Shown: positions 39,719-59,024, counted from the first letter of the stretch. The stretch: 64,000 nucleotides of DNA from Candidatus Electryonea clarkiae (GCA_030765455.1 JAVCCM010000101.1:28794-92793), one strand, 5' to 3'. Program-made: numbers and translations. Notes: generated from the letters alone by a model not told the origin.

Positions 39719-42700
39719 ATGACGATTATGATTGAAAAAATGGCAGTTATCATGAGAAAGTTTAATATAGTTATTCCGGTTTTCCTGTTTTGCATTCCAG
39801 CAATGCTGTTTGCAACGACAGGACTCCGTGTAATTGAAGATACTCAGTCCGGTCTGGTGGTGAGAGTAACCCCTGATGACTGGCATCGATTCGAATTAGA
39901 AGATGGATTTATCCCTATTCCAGCTGGAGCAGGTGTTGATAACAGAGAAAATAGTCTGGCGGTTCCGTACTACCGCACTTTAATCGGATTGCCCTCTAAT
40001 AAATTACCGGCAATTCAGGTTGAGAAGATTCAATGGGGTGAGTGGGCTGCTGCTAATATTAAGGAAGGCAAAGAACAACCAAGAAATCAGCGTATTCCAG
40101 TACTGGATAACGGACAGCCTGTTATAGTCGGCAAGCCTTTTCTCTGGCGCGGCAAATGGGTTACGGATTTATATGTAATTCCTGTCCGGATAGATGGAAA
40201 AGGCGTTAGAAAGCTAAAAGATTTACAGGTGCGTGTAACATATAAAGGAAACAACCAGGGTGGATTATCGCAACCCGACAGGCTGTCAGACAAGATTCTC
40301 CTGAATCATGAAGCGTCAAGATTATGGTCTGCCGCTGAGTCAAAACCGTTATTTCGCCGTTCGCAATCCTGGGTTGAATATGATGAATTAATACGCATTG
40401 AAATTGAGGTTGAAGGTATTTATGAAATAAACCGTGAAACTTTGCTTCGTTCGGGTATAGATCTGGGCGGTTATGATCCGCGGAGTTTCAGGATTTATGG
40501 AAATGGCGGGTTTGTTCTTAACGAAAATATTGGCTCTTCCCGCGACAGCACATTGATTGAGAACGCAATTGTTGTTACCGGAGAGGACGACGGCTCCTGG
40601 GATGAAGGAGATAAAATACTCTTTTATGGACGCAGCGTGAACAGTTGGGATGCACATCAGCCGCCGGGAGAATACAGGCATTCAAATAATCCGTTTACGA
40701 TGCGAAATGTTTATTGGCTGGTAGTACCTCCATTAGGAAGTGCAGACGGGAAAAGGATGGAAACTATCGGTACAACCCGTCCGATCACATACGAGGCTAC
40801 GGTAGCACGTTCGAGAGTATTTTCCGAGAATGATAATTTTATTCATCATAGTATCGACAATCCGGAATCTGGAAAAAACTGGTATGCTGCTGACTTATAT
40901 GGCGGCGATAGATATACGACTAATTTTCAACTCGATCAACCTCACCCAGAACAAGAGGCGGTCTTGTTGCTTGGACAGAGAAGGATTCAACGTGATGGGA
41001 ATGCACTTATCAGGGTGCTGATAAATGGAATAGAAATAGAATCATATTCCTTGACAACAAGTGTGCATTCTATAGATATACCGGCGGGAGTGCTGAATTC
41101 AGGTTCCAATACGTTTTCTTACCAGGTTGAACGTGTAGATGCTGATAAACCCGGGCATAGCCTGTTCGACTGGTTTGAGATTAACTACCTGAGATCTTTT
41201 GAAACATCCCTGAGTTCAATTGCCTTTGATCAGCTTCCTGATGACGGTGTTGCAAGTATCAAGCTGCATGGCTTGGATGCACCCTGGGTATTCGATATAG
41301 AGGATTTTGAAGAAGTCCAACATATTCGGTCCGACAGTTTTGCAGTTGAAGCTCAAGTGACTCGGCCTCGAAGATACCTGGCAGTTTCAGATGGTGAATT
41401 TCTTACACCATCATATATATCAAGGGACGACATCGGGTATGGCGAATATCCTGACGGTCTTCGCGACCAATCATTAAATGCAGATTATTTAATGATTGTC
41501 CATCGCGATTTCTGGGAAACTGCCGCAGCGCTTGAAAGCTATATCGAGGAACGTGATAATATTGAAGTAATGAGAGTTCTTGTATCTGATATTTATGATG
41601 AATTTTCATGGGGGTTATTGGATCCCACAGCGATCAGGGATTTTCTGAAATATGCCCTATATGATTGGACGGACTCTGACCCGGTTACCTGTCTTTTCAT
41701 TGGTGATGGAGATTATGACTATCGTAATCTTATCCCCGGTGATGACAAGAACTTGATACCACCTTATGAAAACAACCAGGAATCGCGAGATGACTGGTTT
41801 GCAGAGTTCGACCCCTCCGGCGGCGAACCGGAATACATTATGGGGCGGCTTCCGTTTCAATCTAACCAGGAACTGGATAACTATGTCAATAAATTGATGT
41901 CCTATGAAAGCGATACGGAACGGGGAGCATGGCGGAACAGGGTTATTGTCGTAGCCGATGACGAATACGGTGAAGGTGGCCCAAATTCTTATGACAAAAC
42001 CCATTTGCAATATTCAGAAGCATTATCCCGTGATCACATTCCGAATTATGTAGAACTCGAGAAAATATATATTGGTACTTATCCGACTGAATTTGATCCG
42101 TCAACCGGTGAACGGCGTAAACCTCTTGCTACTCAAGAGTTGATCGAATCATTAAACCGGGGAGCATTGGTTGTAAATTACATGGGGCATGGGAATGCCC
42201 ATGTCTGGGCGCACGAATCTCTCCTTTTAGATACTCGCGACAACATTCTTATTAACAGCGGATTAAGAGAGCCGATATACGTCGCAGCCACTTGCTCCTG
42301 GGGACATTTTGACAGACCAAACAATGAAGCTTTTTTCGAAATGCTTTTAGGACGGAAGGGTGGAGCGATTGGCGCCGTTGCCGCCACAAGGAACACAAGT
42401 GGCTCTGGAAATTTAGTGTACGTCCAGGAATTTTATGCGCAGTTTTTTGACCGGATCAACAGGCGAACACTTGGTGAAAGTGTATTGCTTGCCAAGATAA
42501 ACGTTGAAGGGCCTACAAACCGTTATTATCATTGTTTCTCTGAACCAAACATGATTCCCGCTGTTCCCGGTCTTGACATGATAGTAACTGATATAAACCC
42601 GGACAGCCTTGTTGCGCTTCAAATCGGGAAAGTTCTTGGCGAGGTTCGTGAGATTAATGATGACAATCCGGTCACAGATTATAATGGCGAAGCAGTAGTA

Positions 42701-43618
42701 ACTGTTTTTGACAGTTATGATTCTTTAACCTACACATTCTTTGACGGCTCTACTATGAGTTACAGGATGCCGGGCGGGATCCTCTTCAGAGGTCGCTCGA
42801 CAGTCGGAAGCGGCGACTTTCTTTCAACCTTCATGGTTCCTCGAGATGTTAGTTATGGTTCTTCTGACAGTTGGATCCAGATGTTCGCATCTGACGGCAA
42901 TAAGGATGCTGTAGGCTCAAAACAGGGTGTAGAGATCGCTGCGATCTATGCGGATGAATTTGGCGACAATACTCCACCCGAGATCAATATTTATTTTGAT
43001 CACCGTGGTTGGCAGGATGGTGACATGACTACTCCACAACCAACACTGATAATTGATCTGGTCGATACAAGCGGTATTAATTTGACCAGTGAAATCGGGC
43101 ATGATATCAAAACGGTGGTGGATCCGGGAAAAGCGAATGAGATAACCTATAATCTCACCGAAGATTTTATTTATGAACGTGATAGTTATACTCGTGGAAC
43201 GGCTGAGCATATCATCACTGGATTGGGAGACGGCAGACACGAGCTTGAGGTCTGGGCATGGGACAATGCTAACAATATGGCTCGCAAGGAAATTCTGTTT
43301 ATTACGATAGGATCTGGCGAGGATGTCAGGCTTGAGAATGTAGTTAATGTTCCGAATCCTTTCGAAGAGAGGACTCATTTTACATTCGAAGCTATTGGTG
43401 CGGATGAAGCAGTGATAAAAATTTACACAGCGAGCGGTCGCCATATAAAAACCATAGGTCCACAAACAATTTACAATGGTTTCAATTATATAGAATGGGA
43501 TGGGTTTGACCATTATAATGATCAAATCGCAAACGGCGTTTATCTTTATAAAGTAAAAGTAACAGATTCCTCCGGTCATGAAGACGAATCTATTGGGAAA
43601 CTGCTTCGTATCCGTTAA
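39719..43618 (+). CDS. porU: Type IX secretion system C-terminal signal peptidase PorU (peptidase C25 family) with its own T9SS C-terminal domain
   Basis: C25 motifs YLMIVHRDF...VTCLFIGDGDYD, catalytic His in YMGHGNAHVW and Cys in ATCSWGHFD. C-terminal CTD (VPNPFEERTHFTFEA...NGVYLYKVKV). 1299 aa. The signal peptide probably starts at the internal ATG 39752. Confidence 0.85.
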   Translation: MTIMIEKMAVIMRKFNIVIPVFLFCIPAMLFATTGLRVIEDTQSGLVVRVTPDDWHRFELEDGFIPIPAGAGVDNRENSLAVPYYRTLIGLPSNKLPAIQVEKIQWGEWAAANIKEGKEQPRNQRIPVLDNGQPVIVGKPFLWRGKWVTDLYVIPVRIDGKGVRKLKDLQVRVTYKGNNQGGLSQPDRLSDKILLNHEASRLWSAAESKPLFRRSQSWVEYDELIRIEIEVEGIYEINRETLLRSGIDLGGYDPRSFRIYGNGGFVLNENIGSSRDSTLIENAIVVTGEDDGSWDEGDKILFYGRSVNSWDAHQPPGEYRHSNNPFTMRNVYWLVVPPLGSADGKRMETIGTTRPITYEATVARSRVFSENDNFIHHSIDNPESGKNWYAADLYGGDRYTTNFQLDQPHPEQEAVLLLGQRRIQRDGNALIRVLINGIEIESYSLTTSVHSIDIPAGVLNSGSNTFSYQVERVDADKPGHSLFDWFEINYLRSFETSLSSIAFDQLPDDGVASIKLHGLDAPWVFDIEDFEEVQHIRSDSFAVEAQVTRPRRYLAVSDGEFLTPSYISRDDIGYGEYPDGLRDQSLNADYLMIVHRDFWETAAALESYIEERDNIEVMRVLVSDIYDEFSWGLLDPTAIRDFLKYALYDWTDSDPVTCLFIGDGDYDYRNLIPGDDKNLIPPYENNQESRDDWFAEFDPSGGEPEYIMGRLPFQSNQELDNYVNKLMSYESDTERGAWRNRVIVVADDEYGEGGPNSYDKTHLQYSEALSRDHIPNYVELEKIYIGTYPTEFDPSTGERRKPLATQELIESLNRGALVVNYMGHGNAHVWAHESLLLDTRDNILINSGLREPIYVAATCSWGHFDRPNNEAFFEMLLGRKGGAIGAVAATRNTSGSGNLVYVQEFYAQFFDRINRRTLGESVLLAKINVEGPTNRYYHCFSEPNMIPAVPGLDMIVTDINPDSLVALQIGKVLGEVREINDDNPVTDYNGEAVVTVFDSYDSLTYTFFDGSTMSYRMPGGILFRGRSTVGSGDFLSTFMVPRDVSYGSSDSWIQMFASDGNKDAVGSKQGVEIAAIYADEFGDNTPPEINIYFDHRGWQDGDMTTPQPTLIIDLVDTSGINLTSEIGHDIKTVVDPGKANEITYNLTEDFIYERDSYTRGTAEHIITGLGDGRHELEVWAWDNANNMARKEILFITIGSGEDVRLENVVNVPNPFEERTHFTFEAIGADEAVIKIYTASGRHIKTIGPQTIYNGFNYIEWDGFDHYNDQIANGVYLYKVKVTDSSGHEDESIGKLLRIR

Positions 43619-43915
43619 CTTACGAAGTTAGGCACAAGTACGGTAGAAAAGAATTTTCAGTATTTGCTGTTTTAAATTGAACTTGTATTATGATAGATAT
43701 TCTTGCGGTAGTCTGTGTAATTGGCTTGTATAAGTAAAATATAAACAGGTCTGTAATTTGCTGTAACTATTGATTAAGGTATTCAGCAAATTCATTTCTG
43801 AGACTGGATTTGGATTTTCTTTGGAAATACTCTGGATATAAGGTTCAGGGGATTGGTAATATTATAGATAGGTCATTTAGTGAACATTTATTCTCAAAGA
43901 TACATGGGGCGAAAT

Positions 43916-45013
43916 ATGGGTAGGAAAGCTGTTCTTCGTGAACGCGCTCATGTGATTGTTATAGCGCTTGTAGTATTGCTGTGTACGTTTACCGCGGTAA
44001 AAGATGCCGCCGCTGTTTCTGTTTCACAGGCAGGTGTTCTATTCCTTAAAATCAGTCCGGGCGCTCGTCCCGGTGGAATGGGCGAAGCATTTGTAGCAGT
44101 TGCCGATGACGCAACAGCTACCTGGTGGAATCCAGCCGGATTGGCATATCAGGATCATAATGAGTTGACACTGATGCATGTTAATTGGCTGCCGCAATTC
44201 AAGCTCGAAGATCTTTACTACGATTTCATCAGTTATGTGCACTTAGTTCCCGAGTGGGGGACTTTTGGCGGCAATCTCGTTTTTCTGAATCTGGGCGAAA
44301 CAGAACGGCGAGGCGAGAACAATGAATATCTTGGCACATTTTCCTCTTATGAATATGCCGTAACAGGCAGCTATGGTTCATTGATGACGGAAAAGCTGGC
44401 TCTTGGTGTTAATATGCGATTCATTTATAGTCATCTTTCCGACAGAGGTGCCGGTGCGGAACAGGGTTCTGGAGTCGCAACGTCCATAGGGGTTGATATT
44501 GGTATGATTGCAAAAGGTCCGTTTGGATCCTGGTATGATCCTCTTGAACGTCTTGACTTAGGTGCAAATTTATCCAATATGGGACCAAAGGTCGCATATA
44601 TAGATCGTGCCCAGGCTGATCCACTTCCCACAAACCTTAAGTTCGGATTCGCCTATCATGTGGTTGACAGTCCTTATAATAAATTGTCTCTCATCGGCGA
44701 TGTTAATAAAGAACTTGTTCGCCGGGATGACAAGGGTGACTCTGATCCGTTTTATCTTGCACTGGTTTCCGCATGGGGTGATGGGCCATTCTTTCCAACG
44801 ATGATTTATAATGCCGGGATAGAGTACTGGTACAGTGATCTTATAGCATTGCGAGGTGGGTACTGGAATGATGATCTCGGCAAGATCTGGCCAATAACAT
44901 TCGGCGCCAGTCTGCAATATTCTCTTTACAGATTCGATTTCTCATACATTCATGCCGGTGAAGGTCATCCCCTGCAGGATACAATGCGATTCAGCCTTTC
45001 AATAGGGTTCTGA
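43916..45013 (+). CDS. porV: T9SS outer-membrane shuttle protein PorV/LptO family
   Basis: Signal peptide. PorV signature GARPGGMGEAFVAVADDATATWWNPAGLA. About 365 aa FadL-like barrel. Immediately after porU. Start at one of the ATGs 43880, 43904 or 43916. Confidence 0.85.
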   Translation: MGRKAVLRERAHVIVIALVVLLCTFTAVKDAAAVSVSQAGVLFLKISPGARPGGMGEAFVAVADDATATWWNPAGLAYQDHNELTLMHVNWLPQFKLEDLYYDFISYVHLVPEWGTFGGNLVFLNLGETERRGENNEYLGTFSSYEYAVTGSYGSLMTEKLALGVNMRFIYSHLSDRGAGAEQGSGVATSIGVDIGMIAKGPFGSWYDPLERLDLGANLSNMGPKVAYIDRAQADPLPTNLKFGFAYHVVDSPYNKLSLIGDVNKELVRRDDKGDSDPFYLALVSAWGDGPFFPTMIYNAGIEYWYSDLIALRGGYWNDDLGKIWPITFGASLQYSLYRFDFSYIHAGEGHPLQDTMRFSLSIGF

Positions 45014-45170: not shown

Positions 45171-48100
45171 ATGAAATTTCTGTTCCAAAAAAATCTCGCT
45201 GGTATTATTTTCTTGTGTGTGTTTTTCACTACATCGCATTTATTGTATGGAAAAAACATTGATGATAAACTAAACCTCAATCTGTTCCAAACGCTTGGTT
45301 CCCAGGAGCAAAGTTTTAATTTCAATTCAGTTAATGACATTAGACGAGATTATCTGGCAGAGACCCTGACAATAATCGCAATTCGTGTGGATTTTTTGCC
45401 GGACACCCTTGCCACGACTACCGGGACCGGTTCATTCTTTTATGAGCTTCCGGATTCTATCGAACCGGAAGAATGGCAGATTGATCCACCTCCTCACGAC
45501 AAACAATATTTCAAAGATCAAATTCTTGCGCTGCATAATTATTTCAAACGGTTCAGTCGCGGAAAACTTAATATTGTTGGGAAAATATATCCTGAAGAAG
45601 ACCAGGACGCTTACACACTTGACTATCCAATCTGGCATATTAATTATGGCGATGATGACAATGACCGTCTTAATCGTACCCTTACTGAGTTGTTTGTTGA
45701 TTCATGGGAAGCAGCCCGTGAAGATCTTGAAGCTGATGGTGTTACTGTAAACGATTCGACTCTCTTCGTCATTTTTCACGCCGGAGCAGGGAACGAATTT
45801 GATACCGGTTTTGATACCACTCCACATGATATCCCTTCTGTTTACATTGGTCCGGAGGATCTGGAAACTTTTGCTGATCTCCCTGATGCCGGAATTCCCC
45901 TGGGAAATGACCTGATTACACGTGGAGTAATTTTGCCCGAAACACAACGTCAGGGTGATGTTGAAGTTGGAATGATCGGGACAATATGCACACAGGTCGG
46001 TTTTTTAATGGGTATGCGACATCTTTATCAACCTGATACCGGCGATCCGGGAATAGGGTTGTTAGGATTAATGGATCGTGGATTCGGTGGTTTTTTCGGA
46101 TTCGGTCCTATTCCACCAAGTGTCTGGGCAAGAGCTTACATGGGGTGGGACAGCGTAAAGGTTGTAGAGGAAGGACCAATCGAACTTATCGCCCAGCAAT
46201 GGCTTGATACACTTTTTACTGAACCGGATACTAATTATCATCTGGTAAAAGTACCAATCAATAATGATGAATATTATCTGCTTGAAGCCAGGCTTCGTGA
46301 TCCTGAAGAAGACAGTGTGACTGTTGCTTACGACCGTGATGGTCGCCGATTGACCATGAATTACGATTATTCCTTTGAAACCGGTGATGGTTTTCGTGTA
46401 CCGGTATGGGTAGAAGATCATGATTTCGACTTTCCATCAAGCGGCATTCTTATCTGGCATATTGACGAGAGTGTGATCAGGGAAAAAATCGATGAAGACC
46501 GTATACAGGAAGATCGTAATCGCAGGGGCGTCTCCCTTGAGGAAGCTGATGGAAGTGAAGATATCGGCGAGGATTATCCATTCCTAACACCAGGTGATGG
46601 TGCCGAATACGGAGTGCGCGAAGACGCCTGGTACGCGGGGAACAAAGTATGGCAGCTTGCAAACAATAATGCTCGCGATGTGGTTTTCGGACCCTATACC
46701 AATCCTTCAACAGCAGCAAATTCAGGTGGAGCAAGCCATATAATATTCGAAAATTTCACTGTTCTCGGCGATACTATGTCCTGTGAAGTAAGCAATGCAT
46801 GGAAGCAGGGCAATTTTCCACAGAATTTAGACTGGAATCCCGGAAGCCAGGTATCGTCCACATTCGCCGACTTGACAGGTGATGGGATTGATGAATTGGT
46901 TCTGTATGATTCAAAAGGGAAGATCCGGTTTTTCTATGGCGACGGTTCGATGCCTTTTAACATTGATCAGACCTATGATCTACCTATAAACAAGATATCT
47001 CATCTTATTGCTGCTGACCTGGATAATGATGGATCGGATGAATTGATCATCGCTGGAGATGCAACGCTTCTGATTCAAAAATATTCTGACGCCGGCGTTT
47101 TGGTAAATGAGGGTGATCCATTTCAATTTGGTCAGCAGGAAATGATATCGTTGACGATTTCAGGACCAGAGGTAGAGCCGGTTATAAATGTAGCATTGAA
47201 AAATCAAAATGAGGATATATGCCGGATTTATTCCATTTATCGTGATCCTGCCGGATATAATCATAGATATATCCAGATTCCTGCAACAGCCCATCTCAGA
47301 TTCGCATTGCTCGGTAGTGAATGGACTGATACGCTTGCAGTGGTTGACAACAAGGGAAATTTGTCGATATACAGAGTCGAAAGTTTCCAGGAGCCATCTG
47401 AATTATTCAGGACTCCAAATACCGAACCATTTGAAACAATCAATTATCTCATATCTGGTGATTTCGATGGCGATAACATGTGGGATATAATGGCATCTGC
47501 ATCCAACGGTAATTTGATTTTCTGGTGGGGAACGGAGGATTGGAGCGAGCCTCATGTTCATCAACTCGAAAAACAGTTATGGAAATACACTGCTTTTGAT
47601 ATTGATGACGACGGTGTAGTAGAACCGGTAGGTATTAGCGGAGATTTTCCGGTAGAAGTGGTTGGAATTGAACCCGGTGGAATTTTCTCCGAGGATACAC
47701 CGATAAGGCTCCCGGAAGGAACACATGCTTCAGGTGCATCTCCCTTAATAATAAATCAGGGTAACCGTCAAAATAAGCTAATGATTTGCGCTGCTCAACT
47801 TGACGATACACTTGGACATGGTGTTGTCGCTACAAATCTTCATTTGAAACGACCTCTTTCCGGCTTCCCGCTTGATTATGGGAGTAATCAGACTAATCTA
47901 AAAATTACAATCGGTCAGATTGATGATGACAGCGATATTGAATTAGTTATGACTTCAATCGCTTCCGGAGGTTTGAAAGTAATCAACATTCCATCCGACC
48001 CAGGAACGTCACATGAAATTCTATGGGGCATGGAAGGCGGCAATCCCCGGCATACATATCATATTTTTTCTTCACCTTCTTCAGTTTCAGGTCTGTCTTC

Positions 48101-48368
48101 AACGGATCTTGAAAATTCATACTGTTGGCCCAATCCGGTGATAGAAGATGTGGCGCATTTTCGGTTCCAGTCAAATTCATCTGGAAATGCGGAAATAAAA
48201 GTCTTCGATCTTGTCGGACGAGAAGTACTCGTGAAGAAGCAGGCAGCAAGGCTTGGAAACGATCAGGAGATTGCCCTCGATGTCAGCAACCTCCCGAGTG
48301 GTGTATATTTAGCCAGGCTTGAGGTAGGTAGCAATTCTACTTTAATACGGTTTGCGGTGGTGCAATAG
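45171..48368 (+). CDS. T9SS-secreted 1065 aa protein: signal peptide + inactive M6 (InhA)-like pseudopeptidase domain + FG-GAP/VCBS beta-propeller repeats + T9SS C-terminal domain
   Basis: VIFHAGAGNEFDTG and GTICTQVGFLMGMRHLYQPD sit where M6 enzymes have the HEFGHDLGLPDLYD motif, so the HExxH is lost. FG-GAP motifs ADLTGDGIDELVL, AADLDNDGSDELII, SGDFDGDNMWDI, AFDIDDDGVVEP and IGQIDDDSDIELV. CTD CWPNPVIEDVAHFRF...SGVYLARLEV. Confidence 0.8.
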   Translation: MKFLFQKNLAGIIFLCVFFTTSHLLYGKNIDDKLNLNLFQTLGSQEQSFNFNSVNDIRRDYLAETLTIIAIRVDFLPDTLATTTGTGSFFYELPDSIEPEEWQIDPPPHDKQYFKDQILALHNYFKRFSRGKLNIVGKIYPEEDQDAYTLDYPIWHINYGDDDNDRLNRTLTELFVDSWEAAREDLEADGVTVNDSTLFVIFHAGAGNEFDTGFDTTPHDIPSVYIGPEDLETFADLPDAGIPLGNDLITRGVILPETQRQGDVEVGMIGTICTQVGFLMGMRHLYQPDTGDPGIGLLGLMDRGFGGFFGFGPIPPSVWARAYMGWDSVKVVEEGPIELIAQQWLDTLFTEPDTNYHLVKVPINNDEYYLLEARLRDPEEDSVTVAYDRDGRRLTMNYDYSFETGDGFRVPVWVEDHDFDFPSSGILIWHIDESVIREKIDEDRIQEDRNRRGVSLEEADGSEDIGEDYPFLTPGDGAEYGVREDAWYAGNKVWQLANNNARDVVFGPYTNPSTAANSGGASHIIFENFTVLGDTMSCEVSNAWKQGNFPQNLDWNPGSQVSSTFADLTGDGIDELVLYDSKGKIRFFYGDGSMPFNIDQTYDLPINKISHLIAADLDNDGSDELIIAGDATLLIQKYSDAGVLVNEGDPFQFGQQEMISLTISGPEVEPVINVALKNQNEDICRIYSIYRDPAGYNHRYIQIPATAHLRFALLGSEWTDTLAVVDNKGNLSIYRVESFQEPSELFRTPNTEPFETINYLISGDFDGDNMWDIMASASNGNLIFWWGTEDWSEPHVHQLEKQLWKYTAFDIDDDGVVEPVGISGDFPVEVVGIEPGGIFSEDTPIRLPEGTHASGASPLIINQGNRQNKLMICAAQLDDTLGHGVVATNLHLKRPLSGFPLDYGSNQTNLKITIGQIDDDSDIELVMTSIASGGLKVINIPSDPGTSHEILWGMEGGNPRHTYHIFSSPSSVSGLSSTDLENSYCWPNPVIEDVAHFRFQSNSSGNAEIKVFDLVGREVLVKKQAARLGNDQEIALDVSNLPSGVYLARLEVGSNSTLIRFAVVQ

Positions 48369-48470
48369 ATTATGAAAACGATTATAGAAAAAGAGTTTTA
48401 TGCAATAAACATAATATCGCATCTAATTCATGTCATCATTAGTACTGCGATTCATCTGATTCAGTGCGTT

Positions 48471-48554
48471 GTCATTCCTGCGAAGGCGGGAATCCAGAGA
48501 GCGAGCATTATTGTGAAATTGAACTTTCTGGATTCCCGCCTTCGCGGGAATGAC
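48471..48554. repeat. REP/MITE-like palindromic element: 27 bp arms GTCATTCCTGCGAAGGCGGGAATCCAG / CTGGATTCCCGCCTTCGCGGGAATGAC, 29 bp spacer
   Basis: Perfect inverted repeat. A second full copy at 53963..54039 and partial arms at 52983 and 53913. Translates to the artefactual peptides PAKAGIQ and SRLRGND. Confidence 0.75.
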
Positions 48555-48593
48555 ATCTCGATTGAGCGGAATTGGTGTACTATCACTGTTTCA

Positions 48594-51500
48594 ATGATTT
48601 TTGGATTTGTTCTTGCCATATCAAACGTTTCCGCTCAACCTCTCGATGCGAACCATCCGGAGCTTCTCTGGAATACTTTTGAGACAGACCATTTTGTGGT
48701 TCATTATCATGATGGCGCGGAACGAACTGCCAATGTTATTGCAAAAATCGCAGAGGAAATTCATCCGAAAATCACCGGATTGTACGGATATGAACCGGAC
48801 ACGAAGTTCCATTTTATCGTAAAGGATACAGACGACTACGCCAACGGAGCAGCATATTATTACAACAATAAAATGCTTATATGGTGTACCGCACTGGATT
48901 ATGACCTGAGGGGCACGACTAACTGGCTGCGAAATGTTATTACACATGAATACACCCACATCATCCAGCTGGGTGCCGCCAGGAAAGCGCCTCGACCGAT
49001 GCCTGCTTTTTATTTCCAGTGGATCGATTATGAATTTGAGAAGCGGCCTGATGTTTTGTATGGATACCCCAACATTCTCGCCAGTTATCCCATAGCAATG
49101 ACTACAATTCCGATGTGGTTCGCAGAAGGAACAGCACAGGCGAATGTACCGGAGCTTGAATATGATTATTGGGACAGCCACCGGGATATGCAGCTTCGAA
49201 TGCGGGCTTTGAATGATTCCCTGCTCCCTCTGAATGATATGGAAGTTTTCGGTAAAACCAGCCTTGGAAATGAAGGAGTGTATAATCACGGTTTCAGTCT
49301 GGTGCTATATATCACACAGAAATATGGGGCAGATGCCCTGAGTGATATGACACAAGAAATGAAAAAGTTGCATCGCGTTGATTTTAACAAAGCTATTGAA
49401 GCAGCGATTGGAATTGACGGATGGCAGCTTCATGAAGAGTGGGCTTCTTATCTAAAAGACAACTATCTGCAAAAGTCTGAAATAATCAGTGCGAATGAAG
49501 TAACCGGGCGTGATTTCGAATCTGAAGGTTATGCAAACCTTTATCCGAAATGGAGTTCGGATAATGAATACATTTACTACTCCTCTAACAGGGGCAAAGA
49601 CTATTTAACCAGCAGAAGCATCTGGCGAAAATCTTTAGAAACAGGGAAAGCAGAAAAGATTGCCCCGGAAGTAAACAGCCCTTTTGACATTACCGCTGAT
49701 GGCAAATGGATGGTTTATAGCCAGATAGTACGACAAAAGAATGAGAGCTATTACGCAGATATCTACCTCCGTGACCTGGAGAAAGAGAAGCAGATTCGTC
49801 TCACACGGTCTGCCCGTGCGATGGAGCCATCTTTTTCGCCGGACGAAAAAAGTCTTGTGTTTGTGCTGAATAAGGATGGAACAAAAAATATCGCTGCTTT
49901 GGAATTACCTGATAGGGAGGAATGGCGCAAAATTAAACCGGTGACCTCTGACAGCATAACTCATATTACAGATTACCGGGACGGCACTCAATGCTGGAGA
50001 CCGCGTTTCAGCCCGAACGGTGAACAAATAGTGTACTCTATGGGACGTGACATAGGACGCGAAATTGTGCTGATAAATCCTGACGGCAAGAATCGACAGA
50101 TAATTATTGACGGTCCCGGCGACCAGAGAGATCCTGCCTGGTCGTCCGATGGTAATGAAATATATTATGTTTCAGATGAAACAGGTATTTATAATCTATA
50201 TAAATATTCTCTGAATGATGAATCCACCATCGCGCTGTCCAATGTCGTCGGTAGTGCATTTATGCCAAACGTAAGAGAAGATGGCGATATCGTTTATACT
50301 GAATTTACCGGGCGAGGATTCGAGCTTCGTATTCTTGATCCAACAGGGCCGGTCGATAGGTTCAAGATGATTTACGATCAGGATTTTATCGAGAATATTC
50401 CAGAGATTACTTTTGATGACACTGACATTGACACTGCTGAGACGGTAGGATACGAGAATCCATTTGAAAATATCTTTGTAGTACCTCGCCTGGCAATGGA
50501 TTATAACACATTCAAGCCAGGAGTTTATCTCTTTAGCAGCGATGTGCTTGAAAGATTGTTCATGCTTGCAGGATTTTCGATTAACCAAAAAACAGAATTT
50601 GACGCATTTGCATTATTTGATTTCAAAGCTCTGCGCCCAACCATTTTCCTTGAAGGATATTATATCAAACGTACTGACGACGCTCGTTTTGAAGACCCGT
50701 ACGTCATTGTAGATGAAAAGCCGGGACCAGAACCCGTTTTTGATACTTATGGTGTTGATTATTCTTTTCATTTAATAGAGGTTGATGGTGGAGCCCGGTG
50801 GAGGCTTTTCACCCCTGTGAGCCTCGAGGCGCGTGGGGTATGGAGTCGTTACCAGGCATACCTGAATTTTGAGGATCTTAGCTCGATTCATTATACTTAT
50901 TTCATAGGAAGATATTTACAAGCCAGGCTGGACGCTGATTTAACGGTGCCAATGGTAAAAGGAAATGTTCATCCCAGGAAAGGTTGGGCTGGCCAGCTAA
51001 CAGCGGCATATGAGAATAACAAGTTCTTTGACGGTTTCGAAGTGAACCTTGACAAGTTTACCTTGCAGGAAAAGTATATTCCTTATAAATACTGGCGATT
51101 GGAAACCGATGTTACCGGTTGGTGGAATCCGGTTGGAAAATTAGTGTTTCAGCCCCGTTTCAGGGGTGGTTACCTTGATAAACAGGTTGATCCATTTATG
51201 CATCTTTATTCCGGCGGCTTGCATGGAATGCGGGGATACAGTTACTATAGCCTTGGCGGAACAAGAAAAATAATTGGTTCATTGGCATTACGACATCCAA
51301 TATACACTCCCAAGCGTCCAAGGTTTGGCTGGGTTCATTTTGACGGATTATACCTTGGTATTTTTGGTGATGCTGGCGACACATGGCGTGAGAGGGATTT
51401 TGATTTTGATAATGTGATAAGTGATGCGGGTGTGGAACTAAGGGCAAAATTGTTCTCATGGTATGGCTTCCCGACTGCTGTAACTTTTTCGGCAGCAAAA

Positions 51501-51650
51501 GGATTTGATCAATTAACTGTTACAGAAAATAATAATACAACTGTTTATGATCCGGACTGGAGATATTATTTTACCTTACTATTTGATTTTGAAACAATAT
51601 TTCCCTCGAATGATCAAAAAGGTAGAATGACGAACGGGTTTGGAAGATAG
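48594..51650 (+). CDS. Omp85-superfamily outer membrane protein with an unusual periplasmic region: Peptidase_MA-like zinc-binding domain (HExxH...EG) + PD40/TolB-like beta-propeller repeats + C-terminal surface-antigen beta-barrel
   Basis: Signal peptide MIFGFVLAISNVSAQP. NVITHEYTHIIQ...WFAEGTAQ. PD40-like repeats (WSSDNEYIYYSS, FSPDEKSLVF, FSPNGEQIVYS, WSSDGNEIYYVS). C-terminal Bac_surface_Ag-like LYSGGLHGMRGYSYYSLGG...SLALRHP...HFDGLYLGIFGDAGDTW...ISDAGVELR. The listed start 48372 reads through the REP element and is rejected. Confidence 0.7.
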   Translation: MIFGFVLAISNVSAQPLDANHPELLWNTFETDHFVVHYHDGAERTANVIAKIAEEIHPKITGLYGYEPDTKFHFIVKDTDDYANGAAYYYNNKMLIWCTALDYDLRGTTNWLRNVITHEYTHIIQLGAARKAPRPMPAFYFQWIDYEFEKRPDVLYGYPNILASYPIAMTTIPMWFAEGTAQANVPELEYDYWDSHRDMQLRMRALNDSLLPLNDMEVFGKTSLGNEGVYNHGFSLVLYITQKYGADALSDMTQEMKKLHRVDFNKAIEAAIGIDGWQLHEEWASYLKDNYLQKSEIISANEVTGRDFESEGYANLYPKWSSDNEYIYYSSNRGKDYLTSRSIWRKSLETGKAEKIAPEVNSPFDITADGKWMVYSQIVRQKNESYYADIYLRDLEKEKQIRLTRSARAMEPSFSPDEKSLVFVLNKDGTKNIAALELPDREEWRKIKPVTSDSITHITDYRDGTQCWRPRFSPNGEQIVYSMGRDIGREIVLINPDGKNRQIIIDGPGDQRDPAWSSDGNEIYYVSDETGIYNLYKYSLNDESTIALSNVVGSAFMPNVREDGDIVYTEFTGRGFELRILDPTGPVDRFKMIYDQDFIENIPEITFDDTDIDTAETVGYENPFENIFVVPRLAMDYNTFKPGVYLFSSDVLERLFMLAGFSINQKTEFDAFALFDFKALRPTIFLEGYYIKRTDDARFEDPYVIVDEKPGPEPVFDTYGVDYSFHLIEVDGGARWRLFTPVSLEARGVWSRYQAYLNFEDLSSIHYTYFIGRYLQARLDADLTVPMVKGNVHPRKGWAGQLTAAYENNKFFDGFEVNLDKFTLQEKYIPYKYWRLETDVTGWWNPVGKLVFQPRFRGGYLDKQVDPFMHLYSGGLHGMRGYSYYSLGGTRKIIGSLALRHPIYTPKRPRFGWVHFDGLYLGIFGDAGDTWRERDFDFDNVISDAGVELRAKLFSWYGFPTAVTFSAAKGFDQLTVTENNNTTVYDPDWRYYFTLLFDFETIFPSNDQKGRMTNGFGR

Positions 51651-51809: not shown

Positions 51810-52886
51810 ATGAAAAAGTCGATTTTATTATTAGTGGCGTTCGCCGTTCTGTTCTCATTTGGGACAATTGTTGCAGGGACGGATACTGCAGCGTCTCGAG
51901 AAACGGAAAATACCGGTAATGGTTCTGATGAAAGTTCAATCGTATTTCTGAACAAGGAAACGACTCAGGAAAATATTGCGAATACTGATGCGGGCTATGA
52001 AGAGGAAGCGCATATTAAGTCACCTCTTTTCCCTTCAAAGAAATCCTTCGATCTGCGACAGAAGATGTCTTTTTATTCGCAAACGGATGAAGGATCAGGC
52101 GCTGTGGCTTCAGTTTCGACCGGTGAGAAACGTCTCAATCCGGGTAGAGCTGTGATGATGTCAGCTATAATTCCCGGCGCGGGTGAATTTTTTCTGGGCT
52201 ATAATAAAGAAAAGCCGATGTTATCATATCTGAAATCAGGATTATTCTTCTCAGCCGAAGTCGGTTTCTGGTATGGCGCTATTTCCTATGCCATGCGTGG
52301 GGAAGCAGTAGAGGACGATTACGAAATATACGCTGATGATAAATGGAATGAAGATGTTTACAGGGGATTTGAATATTGGTTGGCGAAAAATTATCCAACA
52401 CCCGACAATATTTATCCTGATGATAAAGCTAAATGGCGCTTGGAAAGATGGGAAGATAAACTGAATTATTTGCCGACCTGGTTCACCCATGAATTACCGG
52501 AAGAAGAAGACCAGCAATACTACGAGATGATAGGTAAATATCTGCAGCAGTTCGGCATTGCATGGGATGGGGCGCATGATAATTGGATTGAATCCGGTGC
52601 CAATGATCCATTTTATCGAGCCTATCTTGTTGATGAAAGACATGTAGATTATGCTAATGCCAAGGCGTTTCATTATGGCGATATGCGATATGAATCCAAT
52701 CAATTGCTGGATGCTTCCGCCGCATTTTTTATGGCTATCATGGTCAACCACGTCATGTCAGCCCTTGACGCCGGTTTTTCTGTGCGTATCCACAATCGTG
52801 AACTGGCGCGAGCAGAAATGGGATTTGATATAAAGCGCCTTAATGGCGAGGAAATAGCCCTCGGAGGTTTGAGAGTTAGATTTTAA
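51810..52886 (+). CDS. Secreted or outer-membrane protein with a DUF5683-like PGxGQ/E motif (358 aa)
   Basis: Signal peptide. AVMMSAIIPGAGEFFLGYNKEK motif. C-terminal ...GGLRVRF ending in Phe, an OMP-like terminus. Confidence 0.6.
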   Translation: MKKSILLLVAFAVLFSFGTIVAGTDTAASRETENTGNGSDESSIVFLNKETTQENIANTDAGYEEEAHIKSPLFPSKKSFDLRQKMSFYSQTDEGSGAVASVSTGEKRLNPGRAVMMSAIIPGAGEFFLGYNKEKPMLSYLKSGLFFSAEVGFWYGAISYAMRGEAVEDDYEIYADDKWNEDVYRGFEYWLAKNYPTPDNIYPDDKAKWRLERWEDKLNYLPTWFTHELPEEEDQQYYEMIGKYLQQFGIAWDGAHDNWIESGANDPFYRAYLVDERHVDYANAKAFHYGDMRYESNQLLDASAAFFMAIMVNHVMSALDAGFSVRIHNRELARAEMGFDIKRLNGEEIALGGLRVRF

Positions 52887-52995
52887 ACAAACTCTTGCTT
52901 TCAATAAATAAATGCCAATGCCTGTTAAACATTTGAATATATACTTGAACAGTACACACACTCAGAGCAATCGAAGTGTCATTCCCGCGAATCCG

Positions 52996-53700
52996 ATGAA
53001 TCATAAAATTAGATTAGCAAATATAGCAGGAAAAATATTCTCTTTCCTGCTGATCTTGATCTTTTTCGTATCGAAGGGCTACAGCCAATCCCTCGATCTG
53101 AATGCTACTTTCTCTTCGAGTGCTGTATCTCATACCGACACTTACCTTGCCAAACGTCCTCAACAGGCTTTCGTCCGCAGTTTAGTTCTACCGGGCTGGG
53201 GTCAGCGTTGGGGTGAAAGACCTTCACGAGGGACATTTTATACCGGGGTTGAAGCAGCATTATGGACAGGATTGTTCTACTCCTTTGAATCTTACAACTC
53301 TCGCACCAACCATTATGAAGCATTCGCCAGGGAACATGCCAGTGTTACAGGGGATCACCCGCATCAGTTCTTCGTAGATATGGGTAATTATGAAAATGTT
53401 GACGTATTTAATGCCAGACGTCGGCAGGTTCGTGATTATATTTCACAATATTCAGGCGATGATGACTGGTGGGAGTGGGATGACATGAGCAATCGTCAAA
53501 AGTTCAAAGATTTACGTATAAGCGCAGACTTGAATAAGAACCGGATGTATTATATCATCGGGGGAATGGCGTTGAACAGGATTGTCTCGGCTATTGATGC
53601 AGCAAGAGGATTGACGAAGGAACAGAAAGAGATGAAGAAAAAAATGGGACTTTCGCTGGGATTTGCTCCGAATTCAATAGGTATATCTTTTAACTGGTAG
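52996..53700 (+). CDS. Paralogous secreted or outer-membrane protein with a PGWGQ motif (234 aa from ATG 52996)
   Basis: Signal peptide MNHKIRLANIAGKIFSFLLILIFFVSKGYSQ. SLVLPGWGQRWGERPSRGTFYTGVEAALW. C-terminal SIGISFNW. The start is abutted by a partial REP arm. Confidence 0.6.
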   Translation: MNHKIRLANIAGKIFSFLLILIFFVSKGYSQSLDLNATFSSSAVSHTDTYLAKRPQQAFVRSLVLPGWGQRWGERPSRGTFYTGVEAALWTGLFYSFESYNSRTNHYEAFAREHASVTGDHPHQFFVDMGNYENVDVFNARRRQVRDYISQYSGDDDWWEWDDMSNRQKFKDLRISADLNKNRMYYIIGGMALNRIVSAIDAARGLTKEQKEMKKKMGLSLGFAPNSIGISFNW

Positions 53701-58371: not shown

Positions 58372-58396
58372 TCTAAGAGGAACTGGAGTTATTTAA

Positions 58397-59023: not shown

Positions 59024-59024
59024 A

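What the first reader, a model, noticed from the sequence alone, without database searches (positions are those of the whole stretch)
48594..51650. Omp85-type beta-barrel with an N-terminal HExxH (Peptidase_MA-like) domain and PD40 propeller repeats instead of POTRA domains
Seen: HEYTH...WFAEGTAQ zinc-binding-like motif, at least four PD40/TolB-like repeats, and a C-terminal segment matching the Bac_surface_Ag barrel motif (GG..MRGY...SLALRHP...FDG..F.DAGD.W...SDAGVELR). Established: Omp85 proteins normally carry POTRA domains. Peptidase_MA_2 domains are metalloprotease-like. Inference: an outer-membrane-anchored, periplasm-facing protease or pseudo-protease. The architecture appears atypical.
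Basis: partly seen in the sequence, partly recalled or inferred. Interest (0 to 1): 0.65.

Follow-up and report, generated by a model that had tools for sequence, protein, structure and literature searches.

The report
T9SS-linked Omp85-barrel metallopeptidase with TolB propeller
This gene encodes an outer-membrane barrel protein of the Omp85 (BamA-like) family that carries a zinc protease and a TolB-like propeller in place of the usual POTRA domains. The architecture was catalogued in 2014, but the gene turns out to sit beside type IX secretion genes in every relative examined, which points to an unstudied role in that secretion system.

Summary
The ORF at 48594-51650 (+) encodes four parts:
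- a signal peptide;
- a gluzincin-type metallopeptidase domain, with HEYTH at residues 118-122 and the third zinc ligand in WFAEG at 175-179, both invariant across the family;
- a six-bladed TolB/PD40 propeller;
- a POTRA-less 16-strand Omp85 barrel carrying the loop-6 xRGY motif and the strand-13 FxDxG motif.

The AlphaFold2 model has pLDDT 90.4. Foldseek matches TolB, BamA/TamA and M61/M9/M1 peptidases.

The architecture is not new. It is the "WD40-like" (WD40 plus peptidase) Omp85 subfamily of Heinz & Lithgow 2014, which has never been characterised experimentally.

What I could not find in the searchable literature is the gene context. In 83 related loci from several FCB phyla, the gene always follows porV (67/67) and a T9SS-signal-bearing M6-like pseudo-protease (71/71). 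porU lies further upstream in 44/63, and a DUF5683-like gene follows in 72/74. Four very distant relatives keep the porV linkage.

Best reading: an outer-membrane-anchored, periplasm-facing, propeller-gated active peptidase that serves as an accessory to the T9SS sorting and attachment module. Orientation, substrate and activity are all inferred. I rate it a new member of a known kind, of moderate-to-good interest.

The parts
48594..51650 (+). Whole gene: peptidase, propeller and Omp85 barrel (1018 aa from ATG 48594). GenBank's alternative start is GTG 48513, giving 1045 aa.
48594..48635 (+). Predicted Sec signal peptide (MIFGFVLAISNVSA, cleavage before Q15). Gln at +1 is nearly invariant in the family.
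   Evidence: Read from the sequence; (Q15 conserved in at least 90%); pLDDT below 50 for residues 1-18
48636..49499 (+). Gluzincin-type (clan MA) zinc metallopeptidase domain, residues 15-302
   Evidence: Pfam Peptidase_MA_2 E=4.6e-5, below the gathering score. Domain model pLDDT 85.7. Foldseek hits: M61 aminopeptidase 2.5e-5, M9 collagenase peptidase domains 1e-4, M1 IRAP/LTA4H/F3 5e-4 to 1e-2
48945..48959 (+). HEYTH zinc-binding and catalytic motif (H118, E119, H122)
   Evidence: Invariant; 82/82; 50/50
49116..49130 (+). WFAEG 'glutamate helix'. E178 is the predicted third zinc ligand (compare M1 WLNEGFA, recalled from memory).
   Evidence: W175, A177, E178 and G179 invariant; 82/82; lies in helix 174-183 of the model
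49269..49292 (+). NEGVYNHG. Invariant E227 and Y230 are candidate transition-state-stabilising residues (inference only).
   Evidence: invariant list; positions
49500..50348 (+). Six-bladed TolB/PD40-type beta-propeller, residues 303-585
50349..50474 (+). Linker between propeller and barrel (residues 586-627). It has no POTRA fold, is mostly extended, and has pLDDT 84-90.
   Evidence: no POTRA hit
50475..51590 (+). 16-stranded Omp85-type beta-barrel, residues 628-999
   Evidence: DSSP strand count; Foldseek BamA/TamA about 1e-7; profile hit to TamA E=0.0015; Pfam Omp85 E=0.008
51213..51239 (+). Loop-6 motif GGLHGMRGY, between strands 11 and 12. It is the equivalent of the Omp85 (V/I)RG(Y/F) motif.
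51363..51380 (+). Strand-13 motif FGDAGD, the equivalent of Omp85 (F/G)xDxG
39719..43618 (+). porU: T9SS sortase (C25 peptidase), upstream in the same orientation
   Evidence: NCBIfam NF033707, 694 bits against a cutoff of 420; Pfam Peptidase_C25; syntenic in 44/63 loci
43880..45013 (+). porV-family outer-membrane protein
   Evidence: PorV_fam, 274 bits against a cutoff of 90; Pfam PorV; syntenic in 67/67
45171..48368 (+). M6-like pseudo-metalloprotease with FG-GAP repeats and a T9SS C-terminal sorting domain. It has no HExxH.
   Evidence: NF052323 'T9SS-dependent M6-like inactivated metalloprotease', 433 bits (below the cutoff of 600), plus Por_Secre_tail; syntenic in 71/71; HExxH in only 2/67 orthologues
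51810..52886 (+). dsA: DUF5683-like secreted or membrane protein with a C-terminal aromatic residue
   Evidence: syntenic in 72/74
52912..53700 (+). dsB: paralogue of dsA (weak DUF5683 match), with a C-terminal aromatic residue
   Evidence: detected in 45/70 loci

Best explanation
**What it is.** The gene encodes a roughly 1000-residue outer-membrane protein of the 'WD40-like/peptidase' branch of the Omp85 superfamily.

**Shown by prediction and homology:**
- It has a Sec signal peptide, a gluzincin zinc-peptidase domain with an intact and universally conserved active site, a six-bladed TolB-type propeller, a short non-POTRA linker, and a 16-strand Omp85 barrel with the loop-6 and strand-13 signature motifs.
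- It is one gene of a conserved module: (porU)-porV-[M6-like pseudo-protease with T9SS sorting signal]-THIS GENE-[DUF5683-like]-[DUF5683-like].
- The module is found in Electryoneota, Calditrichota, KSB1, LCP-89, Ignavibacteria, Bacteroidota-labelled MAGs and others. Even the most distant detectable relatives keep porV within a few genes; most keep the same gene order.

**Inferred mechanism.** The barrel anchors the protein in the outer membrane. Barrel strand 1 starts on the periplasmic face, so the peptidase-propeller unit hangs in the periplasm next to the T9SS sorting and attachment machinery (PorV, PorU). The propeller restricts access to the catalytic cleft, as in tricorn, DPP-IV and prolyl-oligopeptidase enzymes, so that only extended or unfolded chains are cut. 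The enzyme then processes or clears T9SS-related polypeptides, meaning cargo that fails to be exported, or components and fragments of the sorting step. This is analogous to the way the BepA metalloprotease polices substrates at the BAM complex.

**Open points.** Orientation, substrate and activity are inferences. The barrel may also retain Omp85-type activity towards the neighbouring outer-membrane proteins.
For: **Architecture.**
- AF2 full-length model: pLDDT 90.4, pTM 0.88.
- Foldseek: TolB 6e-11 and BamA/TamA about 1e-7.
- N-domain model against M61, M9 and M1 gluzincins: 2.5e-5 to 1e-3.
- The barrel profile hits TamA across loop 6 to strand 13.

**Active site.** It is conserved in 75/75, 82/82 and 50/50 sequences.

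**Fixed architecture.** A phmmer search with the barrel alone over 1.84 billion representatives finds 220 proteins. All complete hits are about 970-1185 aa with the barrel at the C-terminus.

**Gene context.**
- M6-like gene upstream in 71/71, porV in 67/67, porU in 44/63, dsA downstream in 72/74. The same order was seen.
- Relatives with only 24-30% barrel identity still neighbour porV, a CTD protein or a DUF5683 gene.
- Neighbour identities were confirmed with NCBIfam and Pfam.

**Topology.** The loop-6 motif sits between strands 11 and 12 as in BamA, which puts the N-terminus of strand 1 on the periplasmic side.
Against: - There is no experimental datum for any family member. The T9SS link rests on gene order alone.
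I could not check whether the propeller actually covers the active site, or on which side of the barrel the N-terminal domains are placed.
- Pfam Omp85 and Peptidase_MA_2 matches for this protein are below the gathering scores.
- The N-domain profile finds no PDB relative by sequence.
- hhalign of the barrel profile against the window's own POTRA-Omp85 protein is not significant.
- PorU-mediated cleavage of cargo sorting domains happens on the cell surface, so a periplasmic peptidase has no obvious known T9SS substrate.
- Heinz & Lithgow's WD40-like cluster also lists accessions that, from memory, belong to Proteobacteria and Myxobacteria, which lack T9SS. The wider architecture may therefore not be T9SS-specific.
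Confidence: 0.5

Rival explanations
1. It is a dedicated Omp85 insertase or assembly factor, the 'BamA-BamB fusion' idea of Heinz & Lithgow. It would fold or insert the outer-membrane components encoded around it (PorV, the two DUF5683-like proteins, possibly the T9SS translocon). The peptidase domain would act as a built-in BepA-like quality-control protease.
For: - Loop 6 xRGY and strand 13 FxDxG, the functional core of Omp85 proteins, are conserved.
- The two downstream proteins end in an aromatic residue, like OMP beta-signals: W or F in 64/75 and F or W in 36/48.
- porV is always adjacent.
- One distant locus has a YfiO/BamD-like gene two genes downstream.
- The hypothesis is stated in PMC4104836.
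Against: - There is no POTRA domain, and in BamA and TamA the POTRA domains handle substrates and partners.
- The window already encodes a separate POTRA-Omp85 protein, and the genome presumably has BamA.
- The most strictly conserved residues are the peptidase active site, which argues that proteolysis is the selected activity.
- The loop 6 to strand 13 interaction is also structural, so its conservation does not prove insertase activity.
Confidence: 0.2
2. It is a type V-like (PlpD-like) self-exporting protein. The barrel would translocate the N-terminal peptidase-propeller to the cell surface. There it would work alongside surface-located PorU and the M6-like pseudo-protease, for example degrading cleaved C-terminal sorting domains to recycle PorV, or maturing cargo.
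For: - There is a precedent: the Omp85 protein PlpD exports its N-terminal enzyme domain (discussed in PMC4104836).
- All characterised partners encoded in the module (PorU, PorV, CTD proteins) act at the cell surface (established T9SS knowledge).
- Cleaved sorting domains are a natural substrate for an oligopeptidase.
Against: - Strand 1 begins on the periplasmic side.
- The linker is short, lacks a POTRA domain and lacks a pore-spanning helix.
- About 570 residues in two compact folded domains would have to pass through a barrel whose lumen is occupied by loop 6.
- TolB-type propellers are periplasmic in all characterised cases (my own knowledge).
Confidence: 0.15
3. It is a general envelope housekeeping or peptide-scavenging protease tethered to the outer membrane, with no mechanistic link to T9SS. 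The shared gene order would reflect common regulation or ancestry of envelope genes.
For: - Intergenic gaps of 157-261 nt separate most genes of the module in the window, and a strong hairpin element sits just upstream of the gene. Co-transcription is therefore unproven.
- Similar architectures are reported (Heinz & Lithgow Table S3) in organisms that, from memory, lack T9SS.
Against: - porV and the CTD pseudo-protease are adjacent in every locus with enough flank (67/67 and 71/71).
- The linkage persists in relatives at 24-30% barrel identity.
- Gene order this stable across phyla is rarely maintained without a functional coupling.
Confidence: 0.1
4. It is a pseudo-protease. The HExxH domain would be a binding module without catalysis.
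For: The neighbouring M6-like protein is a clear pseudo-protease, so inactive protease folds are used in this module. Peptidase_MA_2 scores below the Pfam threshold.
Against: Both His residues, the catalytic Glu and the third-ligand Glu are invariant in all 75, 82 and 50 sequences examined. Inactivated homologues normally lose these residues, as the M6-like neighbour has.
Confidence: 0.04

Closest known systems
'WD40-like' (WD40 plus peptidase) Omp85 subfamily of Heinz & Lithgow 2014 (PMC4104836; about 62 proteins at that time)
   Same: The domain order is the same. Phyre2 in their Table S3 gives a BamA or TamA barrel (99.7-100), a TolB propeller (99.9-100) and an 'aminopeptidase' hit (M1 F3, APN, or collagenase 4ar1; about 99) for each listed member. 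One of these is H1XQ58, which from memory is Caldithrix abyssi. Caldithrix loci L010 and L048 carry 37-41% identical orthologues here. The function of the subfamily is unknown.
   Different: - The paper describes the class in the main text only as a WD40-Omp85 'BamA-BamB-like fusion'. It does not analyse the active site or the gene context.
- I could not retrieve their sequences to prove identity of the families.
- Their cluster may include non-FCB members that my barrel search did not reach.
BamA / TamA (canonical Omp85 insertases)
   Same: A 16-strand barrel, loop 6 (V/I)RG(Y/F) between strands 11 and 12, and strand 13 FxDxG. Foldseek E is about 1e-7 and the profile hits TamA.
   Different: There are no POTRA domains. 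The sequence is very divergent: Pfam is below threshold, and phmmer with the barrel reaches no BamA or TamA. The protein carries an enzyme and a propeller instead.
PlpD (patatin-like Omp85, type Vd secretion)
   Same: An Omp85 barrel fused to an N-terminal hydrolytic enzyme domain.
   Different: PlpD keeps a POTRA domain and exports a lipase. Here the enzyme is a zinc peptidase followed by a propeller, there is no POTRA, and export is not indicated.
BepA (M48 zinc metalloprotease with TPR domain that associates with BAM; my own knowledge)
   Same: A periplasmic HExxH protease positioned at an Omp85 machine through a protein-interaction domain, acting in quality control of outer-membrane biogenesis. 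This is a functional analogy for 'how it may work'.
   Different: BepA is a separate soluble protein of a different peptidase family (M48). It has a TPR domain rather than a propeller and no T9SS link.
TolB, and propeller-gated peptidases (tricorn, DPP-IV/S9 family)
   Same: A six-bladed PD40 propeller that most resembles TolB. Precomputed Tricorn_N and Tricorn_2nd hits occur in homologues. In those peptidases a propeller next to the peptidase domain gates substrate access.
   Different: It lacks the TolB N-terminal domain. The TolB equivalog scores 103 bits against a cutoff of 343. The catalytic type is metallo, not serine. The gating geometry was not verified.
T9SS attachment complex PorU-PorV-PorZ-PorQ of Porphyromonas gingivalis
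   Same: The gene is encoded with porU and porV. The neighbouring propeller-containing, CTD-bearing pseudo-protease loosely recalls PorZ (two propellers plus a retained CTD), which needs an outer-membrane barrel partner.
   Different: There is no sequence relationship to PorZ or PorQ. PorQ is a FadL-like barrel, not Omp85. This is an analogy only and was not tested.

Membership tests
Omp85 superfamily (PF01103 barrel) | 16-stranded C-terminal beta-barrel | tested here: met
   The AF2 model has 16 long strands between residues 628 and 997, with pLDDT mostly above 90. Foldseek hits BamA and TamA barrels at E about 1e-7, TM up to 0.62. This rests on a prediction, not an experimental structure.
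Omp85 superfamily (PF01103 barrel) | Loop 6 between strands 11 and 12 carrying the (V/I)RG(Y/F) motif | tested here: met
   GGLHGMRGY lies at residues 874-882, in the 862-890 loop between strand 11 (850-861) and strand 12 (891-904). It aligns with TamA GGDQSVRGY. G874, G875, G878 and Y882 are invariant.
Omp85 superfamily (PF01103 barrel) | Strand 13 (F/G)xDxG motif that docks loop 6 | tested here: met
   FGDAGD lies at residues 924-929, within strand 914-931. It aligns with TamA FVDQGNAF.
Omp85 superfamily (PF01103 barrel) | Sequence match to the Pfam Omp85 model above its gathering score | tested here: not met
   The score is 16.1 bits, E=0.008, against a gathering score of 24. By my count 17 of the 120 closest homologues carry a precomputed PF01103 hit. 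P0103 has an unmarked hit, meaning E at most 1e-5.
Omp85 superfamily (canonical BamA/TamA/TpsB type) | One or more N-terminal POTRA domains | tested here: not met
   There is no POTRA hit. The model shows only a 42-residue, mostly extended linker between propeller and barrel. POTRA is not universal in the superfamily: the noNterm, Metallo and WD40-like classes lack it (PMC4104836).
Clan MA(E) gluzincin metallopeptidases | HExxH motif on the active-site helix | tested here: met
   HEYTH at 118-122 lies in helix 111-128 and is invariant.
Clan MA(E) gluzincin metallopeptidases | Third zinc ligand Glu on a following helix | tested here: met
   E178 in WFAEG lies in helix 174-183 and is invariant. 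The spacing from HExxH is 55 residues because of a beta-hairpin insertion, which is longer than in M1 or M4 (my knowledge).
Clan MA(E) gluzincin metallopeptidases | Thermolysin-like catalytic-domain fold | tested here: met
   Foldseek of the domain model returns almost only zinc-peptidase catalytic domains (M61, M9, M1, AM0627). E ranges from 2.5e-5 to 1e-2, but TM is only about 0.45-0.56.
Clan MA(E) gluzincin metallopeptidases | Pfam Peptidase_MA_2 above the gathering score, or a sequence match to a solved peptidase | tested here: not met
   Peptidase_MA_2 scores 23.7 bits against a gathering score of 32.4. phmmer and profile searches of the PDB give no peptidase hits.
Clan MA(E) gluzincin metallopeptidases | Zinc-dependent peptidase activity | not testable with these tools
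   Requires biochemistry.
TolB / PD40 beta-propeller | Six-bladed propeller built of PD40 repeats | tested here: met
   PD40 scores E=4e-19, above the gathering score. There are 23 strands in six groups between residues 303 and 585. TolB structures are the top Foldseek hits.
TolB (Tol-Pal system protein, TIGR02800 equivalog) | Full-length match including the N-terminal TolA-binding domain | tested here: not met
   The score is 102.6 bits against a cutoff of 343, and only profile positions 238-356 are matched in the best stretch. The protein is not a TolB orthologue.
'WD40-like' Omp85 subfamily (Heinz & Lithgow 2014) | Omp85 barrel preceded by a TolB-like PD40 propeller and an aminopeptidase-like domain | tested here: met
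   The same three components are found here and listed for the subfamily in Table S2 and Table S3. Direct sequence comparison with their accessions was not possible.
Type IX secretion system component | Homology to a named T9SS protein, or experimental requirement for secretion | tested here: not met
   There is no NCBIfam or Pfam T9SS family hit. Only conserved gene neighbourhood links it to T9SS. A requirement for secretion cannot be tested here.
T9SS cargo | C-terminal sorting domain (Por_Secre_tail) | tested here: not met
   There is no Por_Secre_tail hit. The C-terminus is the barrel followed by a 19-residue, low-confidence tail.

The most novel reading that the evidence does not exclude
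The protein is a genuine, so far unrecognised component of the type IX secretion and attachment machinery in the FCB superphylum. It would be an Omp85-family barrel carrying an active, propeller-gated zinc peptidase. It would work as one outer-membrane unit with PorV, the CTD-bearing M6-like pseudo-protease and two DUF5683-like proteins. Possible roles are to process or clear cargo or sorting signals, or to assemble the module. That would be the first Omp85 protein assigned to T9SS and the first function for the WD40/peptidase Omp85 class.
Probability: 0.45. Interest if true: 0.75.

Novelty: new member of a known kind. Interest (0 to 1): 0.55.

Why it matters
The Omp85 superfamily is central to outer-membrane biogenesis and protein export. 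Its non-POTRA branches, including the WD40/peptidase class, have had no assigned function since they were catalogued in 2014. T9SS has been studied almost only in Bacteroidota, and its make-up in sister phyla is poorly known.

A gene module kept across phyla, porV / CTD pseudo-protease / Omp85-peptidase / DUF5683 proteins, gives a concrete and testable hypothesis for both problems. It nominates a specific protease and barrel as T9SS accessory factors. It also suggests which mutants, pull-downs and structures to attempt.

If the link is only historical, the gene remains an ordinary member of a known but uncharacterised family.

Tried and rejected
- **Single-sequence phmmer against PDB.** The N-domain and the barrel each found nothing. 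The N-domain profile also found nothing relevant. Only the barrel profile reached TamA.
- **hhalign against the window's own Omp85.** Comparing the barrel profile with the POTRA-Omp85 protein at 28146-29903 was not significant. It aligned only the loop-6 motif.
- **Structure prediction input.** I worked around this by aligning the window's N-domain to full-length homologues.
- **Pfam scan of the full 75-sequence alignment.** It exceeded the size limit and I did not repeat it.
- **Exact-sequence cluster look-ups.** The window protein from ATG 48594 and the Caldithrix orthologue were not in the collection, probably because of different start-codon calls. I therefore could not tie H1XQ58 to the family by accession.
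- **Promoter and terminator scan.** It gave nothing above background, so the operon structure is undetermined.
- **Literature searches.** Searches for this family together with T9SS, PorV2/PorU2, the M6-like pseudo-protease and DUF5683 found no paper describing the linkage.
- **Rejected identities.** A TolB orthologue is rejected because the equivalog score is far below its cutoff. T9SS cargo is rejected because there is no CTD. A pseudo-protease is rejected because the active site is invariant.
- **Intermediate-length barrel hits.** I suspected hits of 600-830 aa were propeller-only variants. Of the ten I inspected, seven are plainly contig-end fragments; two more (P0189, P0200) begin with M but lack a signal peptide and are probably truncated. 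One (P0133) has a different N-terminus of uncertain authenticity.

Full report
**1. What is at the coordinates**

A single + strand ORF ends at 51650. The longest reading frame starts at 48372. The N-terminal 74 codons of that frame run through a REP-like hairpin and have no counterpart in homologues. GenBank's version of the same protein (P0001, 100% identical, 1045 aa, 'hypothetical protein', Candidatus Electryonea clarkiae) starts at GTG 48513, inside the hairpin loop. The mature protein is the same either way. The organism belongs to the candidate phylum Electryoneota in the FCB group.

**2. Checking the observation**

Pfam gives these matches:

| Model | E-value | Relation to gathering score |
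|---|---|---|
| PD40 | 4e-19 | above |
| DPPIV_N | 7e-7 | above |
| Peptidase_MA_2 | 4.6e-5 | below (23.7 vs 32.4 bits) |
| Omp85 | 0.008 | below (16.1 vs 24 bits) |

NCBIfam gives only partial TolB-type matches and weak HExxH-family matches (flagellinolysin, MXAN_6640). By sequence models alone, only the propeller is secure.

I therefore collected homologues. There are 2266 hits, and the best 120 are full-length at 38-70% identity. I aligned 75 of them and predicted the structure. The model has mean pLDDT 90.4 and pTM 0.88. Its parts are:
- an alpha/beta-plus-helical domain, residues about 20-300;
- 23 strands in six groups at 303-585, which is a six-bladed propeller;
- a 42-residue, mostly extended linker;
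- 16 long strands at 628-997.

Foldseek against the PDB gives TolB structures first (6e-11). BamA and TamA barrels follow at 1.2e-7 to 3e-7: F. johnsoniae BamA, D. radiodurans BamA (TM 0.62), P. aeruginosa TamA and the E. coli BamA barrel (TM 0.53).

A profile of the barrel region (alignment A3) hits TamA chains in the PDB at E=0.0015 to 0.04. The alignment places the family's YAGGLxGMRGY on TamA FAGGDQSVRGY, and FxDxGNAW on FVDQGNAF. In the model the first motif lies in the loop between strands 11 and 12. The second lies in strand 13. Those are the positions of the Omp85 loop-6 and strand-13 signatures (established knowledge of BamA, TamA and FhaC).

The N-terminal domain was modelled separately (pLDDT 85.7). 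It matches almost only zinc-peptidase catalytic domains: an M61 aminopeptidase (2.5e-5), M9 collagenase peptidase domains (1e-4), and M1 enzymes IRAP, LTA4H and F3 (5e-4 to 1e-2). TM is about 0.5.

H118, E119, H122 and E178 (in WFAEG, on the next helix) are invariant in 75 homologues. They are present in 82/82 orthologues from genome loci. HExxH is in 50/50 full-length representatives of 50%-identity clusters, and W.AEG in 47/50. No POTRA domain is detected by sequence or in the model.

**3. It is a fixed, widespread architecture that has already been catalogued**

A phmmer search with the barrel alone against 1.84 billion cluster representatives finds only 220 proteins (139 at E<=1e-10). Every complete hit is about 970-1185 aa with the barrel at the C-terminus. 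Shorter hits are contig-end fragments. They come from Calditrichota, KSB1, LCP-89, Ignavibacteria, Delongbacteria, Kryptonia, Bacteroidota-labelled MAGs and others.

The literature already contains this class. Heinz & Lithgow 2014 (PMC4104836) define a 'WD40-like' Omp85 subfamily. Their Table S2 lists PF01103 plus PF07676 architectures, about 62 proteins by my sum of its counts. Their Table S3 gives three Phyre2 hits for each listed member: a BamA or TamA barrel hit (99.7-100), a TolB hit (99.9-100), and a 'best aminopeptidase hit' (M1 F3 1z5h, APN 4kxd or 4fgm, collagenase 4ar1; about 99). A 2024 paper summarises the class as Omp85s with 'divergent WD40 and peptidase domains' (PMC11358297).

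The only functional idea offered was a BamA-BamB-like fusion. No experiment on any member turned up in my searches.

**4. Surroundings: a conserved T9SS-linked module**

In the window the gene lies in a co-oriented run:

| Gene | Coordinates | Evidence |
|---|---|---|
| porU sortase | 39719-43618 | NF033707, 694 bits, above cutoff |
| porV-family protein | 43880-45013 | PorV_fam, 274 bits, above cutoff |
| M6-like protein (1065 aa) with FG-GAP repeats and a T9SS C-terminal sorting domain | 45171-48368 | NF052323 'T9SS-dependent M6-like inactivated metalloprotease', 433 bits, below its 600 cutoff |
| target | 48594-51650 | this finding |
| dsA and dsB, two paralogous DUF5683-like proteins | 51810-52886 and 52912-53700 | weak DUF5683 match |

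The same order appeared at once in LCP-89, KSB1 and sediment contigs. I quantified it by tblastn of the window's neighbours on 83 non-redundant loci. Only loci with enough flank were counted:

| Neighbour | Position relative to the target | Loci |
|---|---|---|
| M6-like gene | directly upstream | 71/71 |
| porV | upstream | 67/67 |
| porU | upstream | 44/63 |
| dsA | downstream | 72/74 |
| dsB | downstream | 45/70 |

dsB may be too diverged for tblastn in Ignavibacteria.

Those 83 loci are the closest relatives, so I also looked up four of the most distant barrel hits, at 24-30% identity. All four keep the linkage:
- P0222: porV, an 868-aa protein, the target, then two small genes.
- P0217: porV, a CTD protein, the target.
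- P0263: porU, porV, a CTD protein, the target, DUF5683.
- P0230: the target, DUF5683, one unrelated gene, then porV.

The M6-like neighbour lacks HExxH in the window and in 65/67 orthologues. It is a true pseudo-protease, in contrast to the target.

dsA and dsB have signal peptides and shared motifs (S..PG.G..Y, NH..SA..A). They end in W or F in 64/75 and 36/48 sequences, as outer-membrane beta-signals do. They have no annotated function.

I found no paper linking this Omp85 class, or this module, to T9SS.

**5. How it most likely works**

Shown, at the level of prediction and homology:
- The domain composition.
- Integrity and universal conservation of the zinc site.
- Omp85 signature motifs in their canonical positions.
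- The fixed architecture.
- Invariant linkage to porV and a T9SS-cargo pseudo-protease.

Inferred:
- **(a) Orientation.** Loop 6 is an extracellular loop joining strands 11 and 12, so odd strands run from periplasm to outside. Strand 1 then begins in the periplasm. The linker, propeller and peptidase are periplasmic unless the chain threads the lumen. TolB-type propellers and Omp85 N-terminal domains are periplasmic in characterised cases.
- **(b) Gating.** A propeller next to a peptidase domain is the arrangement used by tricorn, DPP-IV and prolyl oligopeptidases to admit only extended peptides. I could not check the geometry because model coordinates are not exposed.
- **(c) Role.** I propose a processing or quality-control peptidase stationed at the outer membrane beside the PorV/PorU sorting machinery, in the way BepA polices BAM substrates.

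I put about 0.95 on the architecture, about 0.8 on catalytic competence, about 0.7 on a real functional tie to T9SS, and about 0.4 on the specific periplasmic quality-control role. That gives 0.5 overall for the combined statement.

**6. Rivals**

- **A dedicated insertase for the neighbouring outer-membrane proteins (0.2).** It is supported by the conserved Omp85 core motifs and by the beta-signal-like C-termini of dsA and dsB. It is weakened by the absence of POTRA and by the fact that the peptidase site is the most conserved feature.
- **A PlpD-like self-exporter that displays the peptidase on the surface (0.15).** There it could degrade cleaved sorting domains. The idea is attractive because PorU acts at the surface. 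Topology and the lack of a POTRA or helical linker argue against it.
- **A generic envelope protease with no T9SS role (0.1).** The depth of the synteny argues against it.
- **A pseudo-protease (0.04).** The invariant active site argues against it.

**7. Limits**

- No experiment exists for this family.
- Pfam Omp85 and Peptidase_MA_2 scores are sub-threshold for this protein.
- Sequence searches of the PDB with the N-domain are empty.
- hhalign to the window's own POTRA-Omp85 protein is not significant.
- Co-transcription is unproven. Gaps of 157-261 nt separate most genes of the module, and a strong hairpin element (dG -68 kcal/mol, z -11) sits just upstream of the gene.
- Heinz & Lithgow's cluster lists accessions that, from memory, are from Proteobacteria and Myxobacteria. 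I could not retrieve them, so the wider architecture may not be restricted to T9SS-bearing organisms.

**8. Verdict**

The finding is real and correctly described. The protein is a member of a known but uncharacterised Omp85 subfamily, so the architecture itself is not novel. The added value is twofold:
- The peptidase site is universally intact.
- The gene belongs to a phylum-spanning porV/porU-centred module.

Together these yield a specific and testable hypothesis for both the orphan Omp85 class and the composition of T9SS outside the model Bacteroidota. I score interest at 0.55 and classify it as a new member of a known kind.

Noticed in passing
window 48470-48560 and 53960-54040: Two copies of a near-perfect palindromic element (arm GCGAAGGCGGGAATCCAG, 6 matches against 0.05 expected) bracket the block target-dsA-dsB. 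The upstream copy folds at -68 kcal/mol (z = -11). It contains the GTG start codon that GenBank uses for the target. It translates to the 'VIPAKAGIQ'-type peptide seen in the long ORF. It is probably a REP or MITE-like intergenic repeat, and its role is unknown.
   Followed up: partly
window 45171-48368: The gene directly upstream is an M6-like metalloprotease homologue that has lost HExxH (only 2/67 orthologues have any HExxH). It carries FG-GAP repeats and a T9SS sorting domain. NCBIfam has a model for this type (NF052323) and for 'PorU2' and 'PorV2', which suggests curators have noticed related T9SS-like clusters.
   Followed up: partly
window 51810-52886 and 52912-53700: Two paralogous, uncharacterised DUF5683-like proteins always follow the target. 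Both have signal peptides, shared motifs (S..PG.G..Y, QQYYE.IGKY in dsA, NH..SA..A) and a C-terminal W or F resembling an outer-membrane beta-signal. One distant homologue (P0363) is fused to a CsgG domain.
   Followed up: partly
window 28146-29903: A second Omp85-family gene, this one with a POTRA domain and weak ShlB similarity (585 aa). It is a TamA, BamA-like or TpsB-like paralogue in the same window.
   Followed up: no
window 31744-33790: A low-GC island (GC 0.32 against about 0.43) carries a DNA methylase fused to a staphylococcal-nuclease domain, plus an MjaI-type restriction endonuclease. It is probably a horizontally acquired restriction-modification cassette.
   Followed up: no
window 55678-61083: A cluster of a molybdopterin oxidoreductase catalytic subunit, a 4Fe-4S subunit and an NrfD-type membrane subunit (polysulfide, thiosulfate or tetrathionate reductase-like), followed by FdhD.
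   Followed up: no
window 54183-54908 (- strand): A small protein (241 aa) with a T9SS C-terminal sorting domain, convergent with the module. It is another T9SS cargo gene in the neighbourhood.
   Followed up: no
window 48636 (residue Q15) and homologues: Gln at the first position after the predicted signal-peptide cleavage site is at least 90% conserved across the family. This is reminiscent of the Bacteroidetes 'Q-rule' (N-terminal pyroglutamate in signal peptidase I substrates; my own knowledge).
   Followed up: no
L086 13863-14657: In one distant relative's locus, a YfiO/BamD-like TPR lipoprotein gene lies two genes downstream of the Omp85-peptidase. It may be coincidental, but it is relevant to the insertase hypothesis.
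   Followed up: no
window 14001-16000: There is a strong negative AT skew (-0.30) over the region. The region encodes an extended ribosomal protein S16 homologue (298 aa, far longer than the 62-position Pfam S16 model it matches) and Ffh on the minus strand. The long S16 extension was not examined.
   Followed up: no
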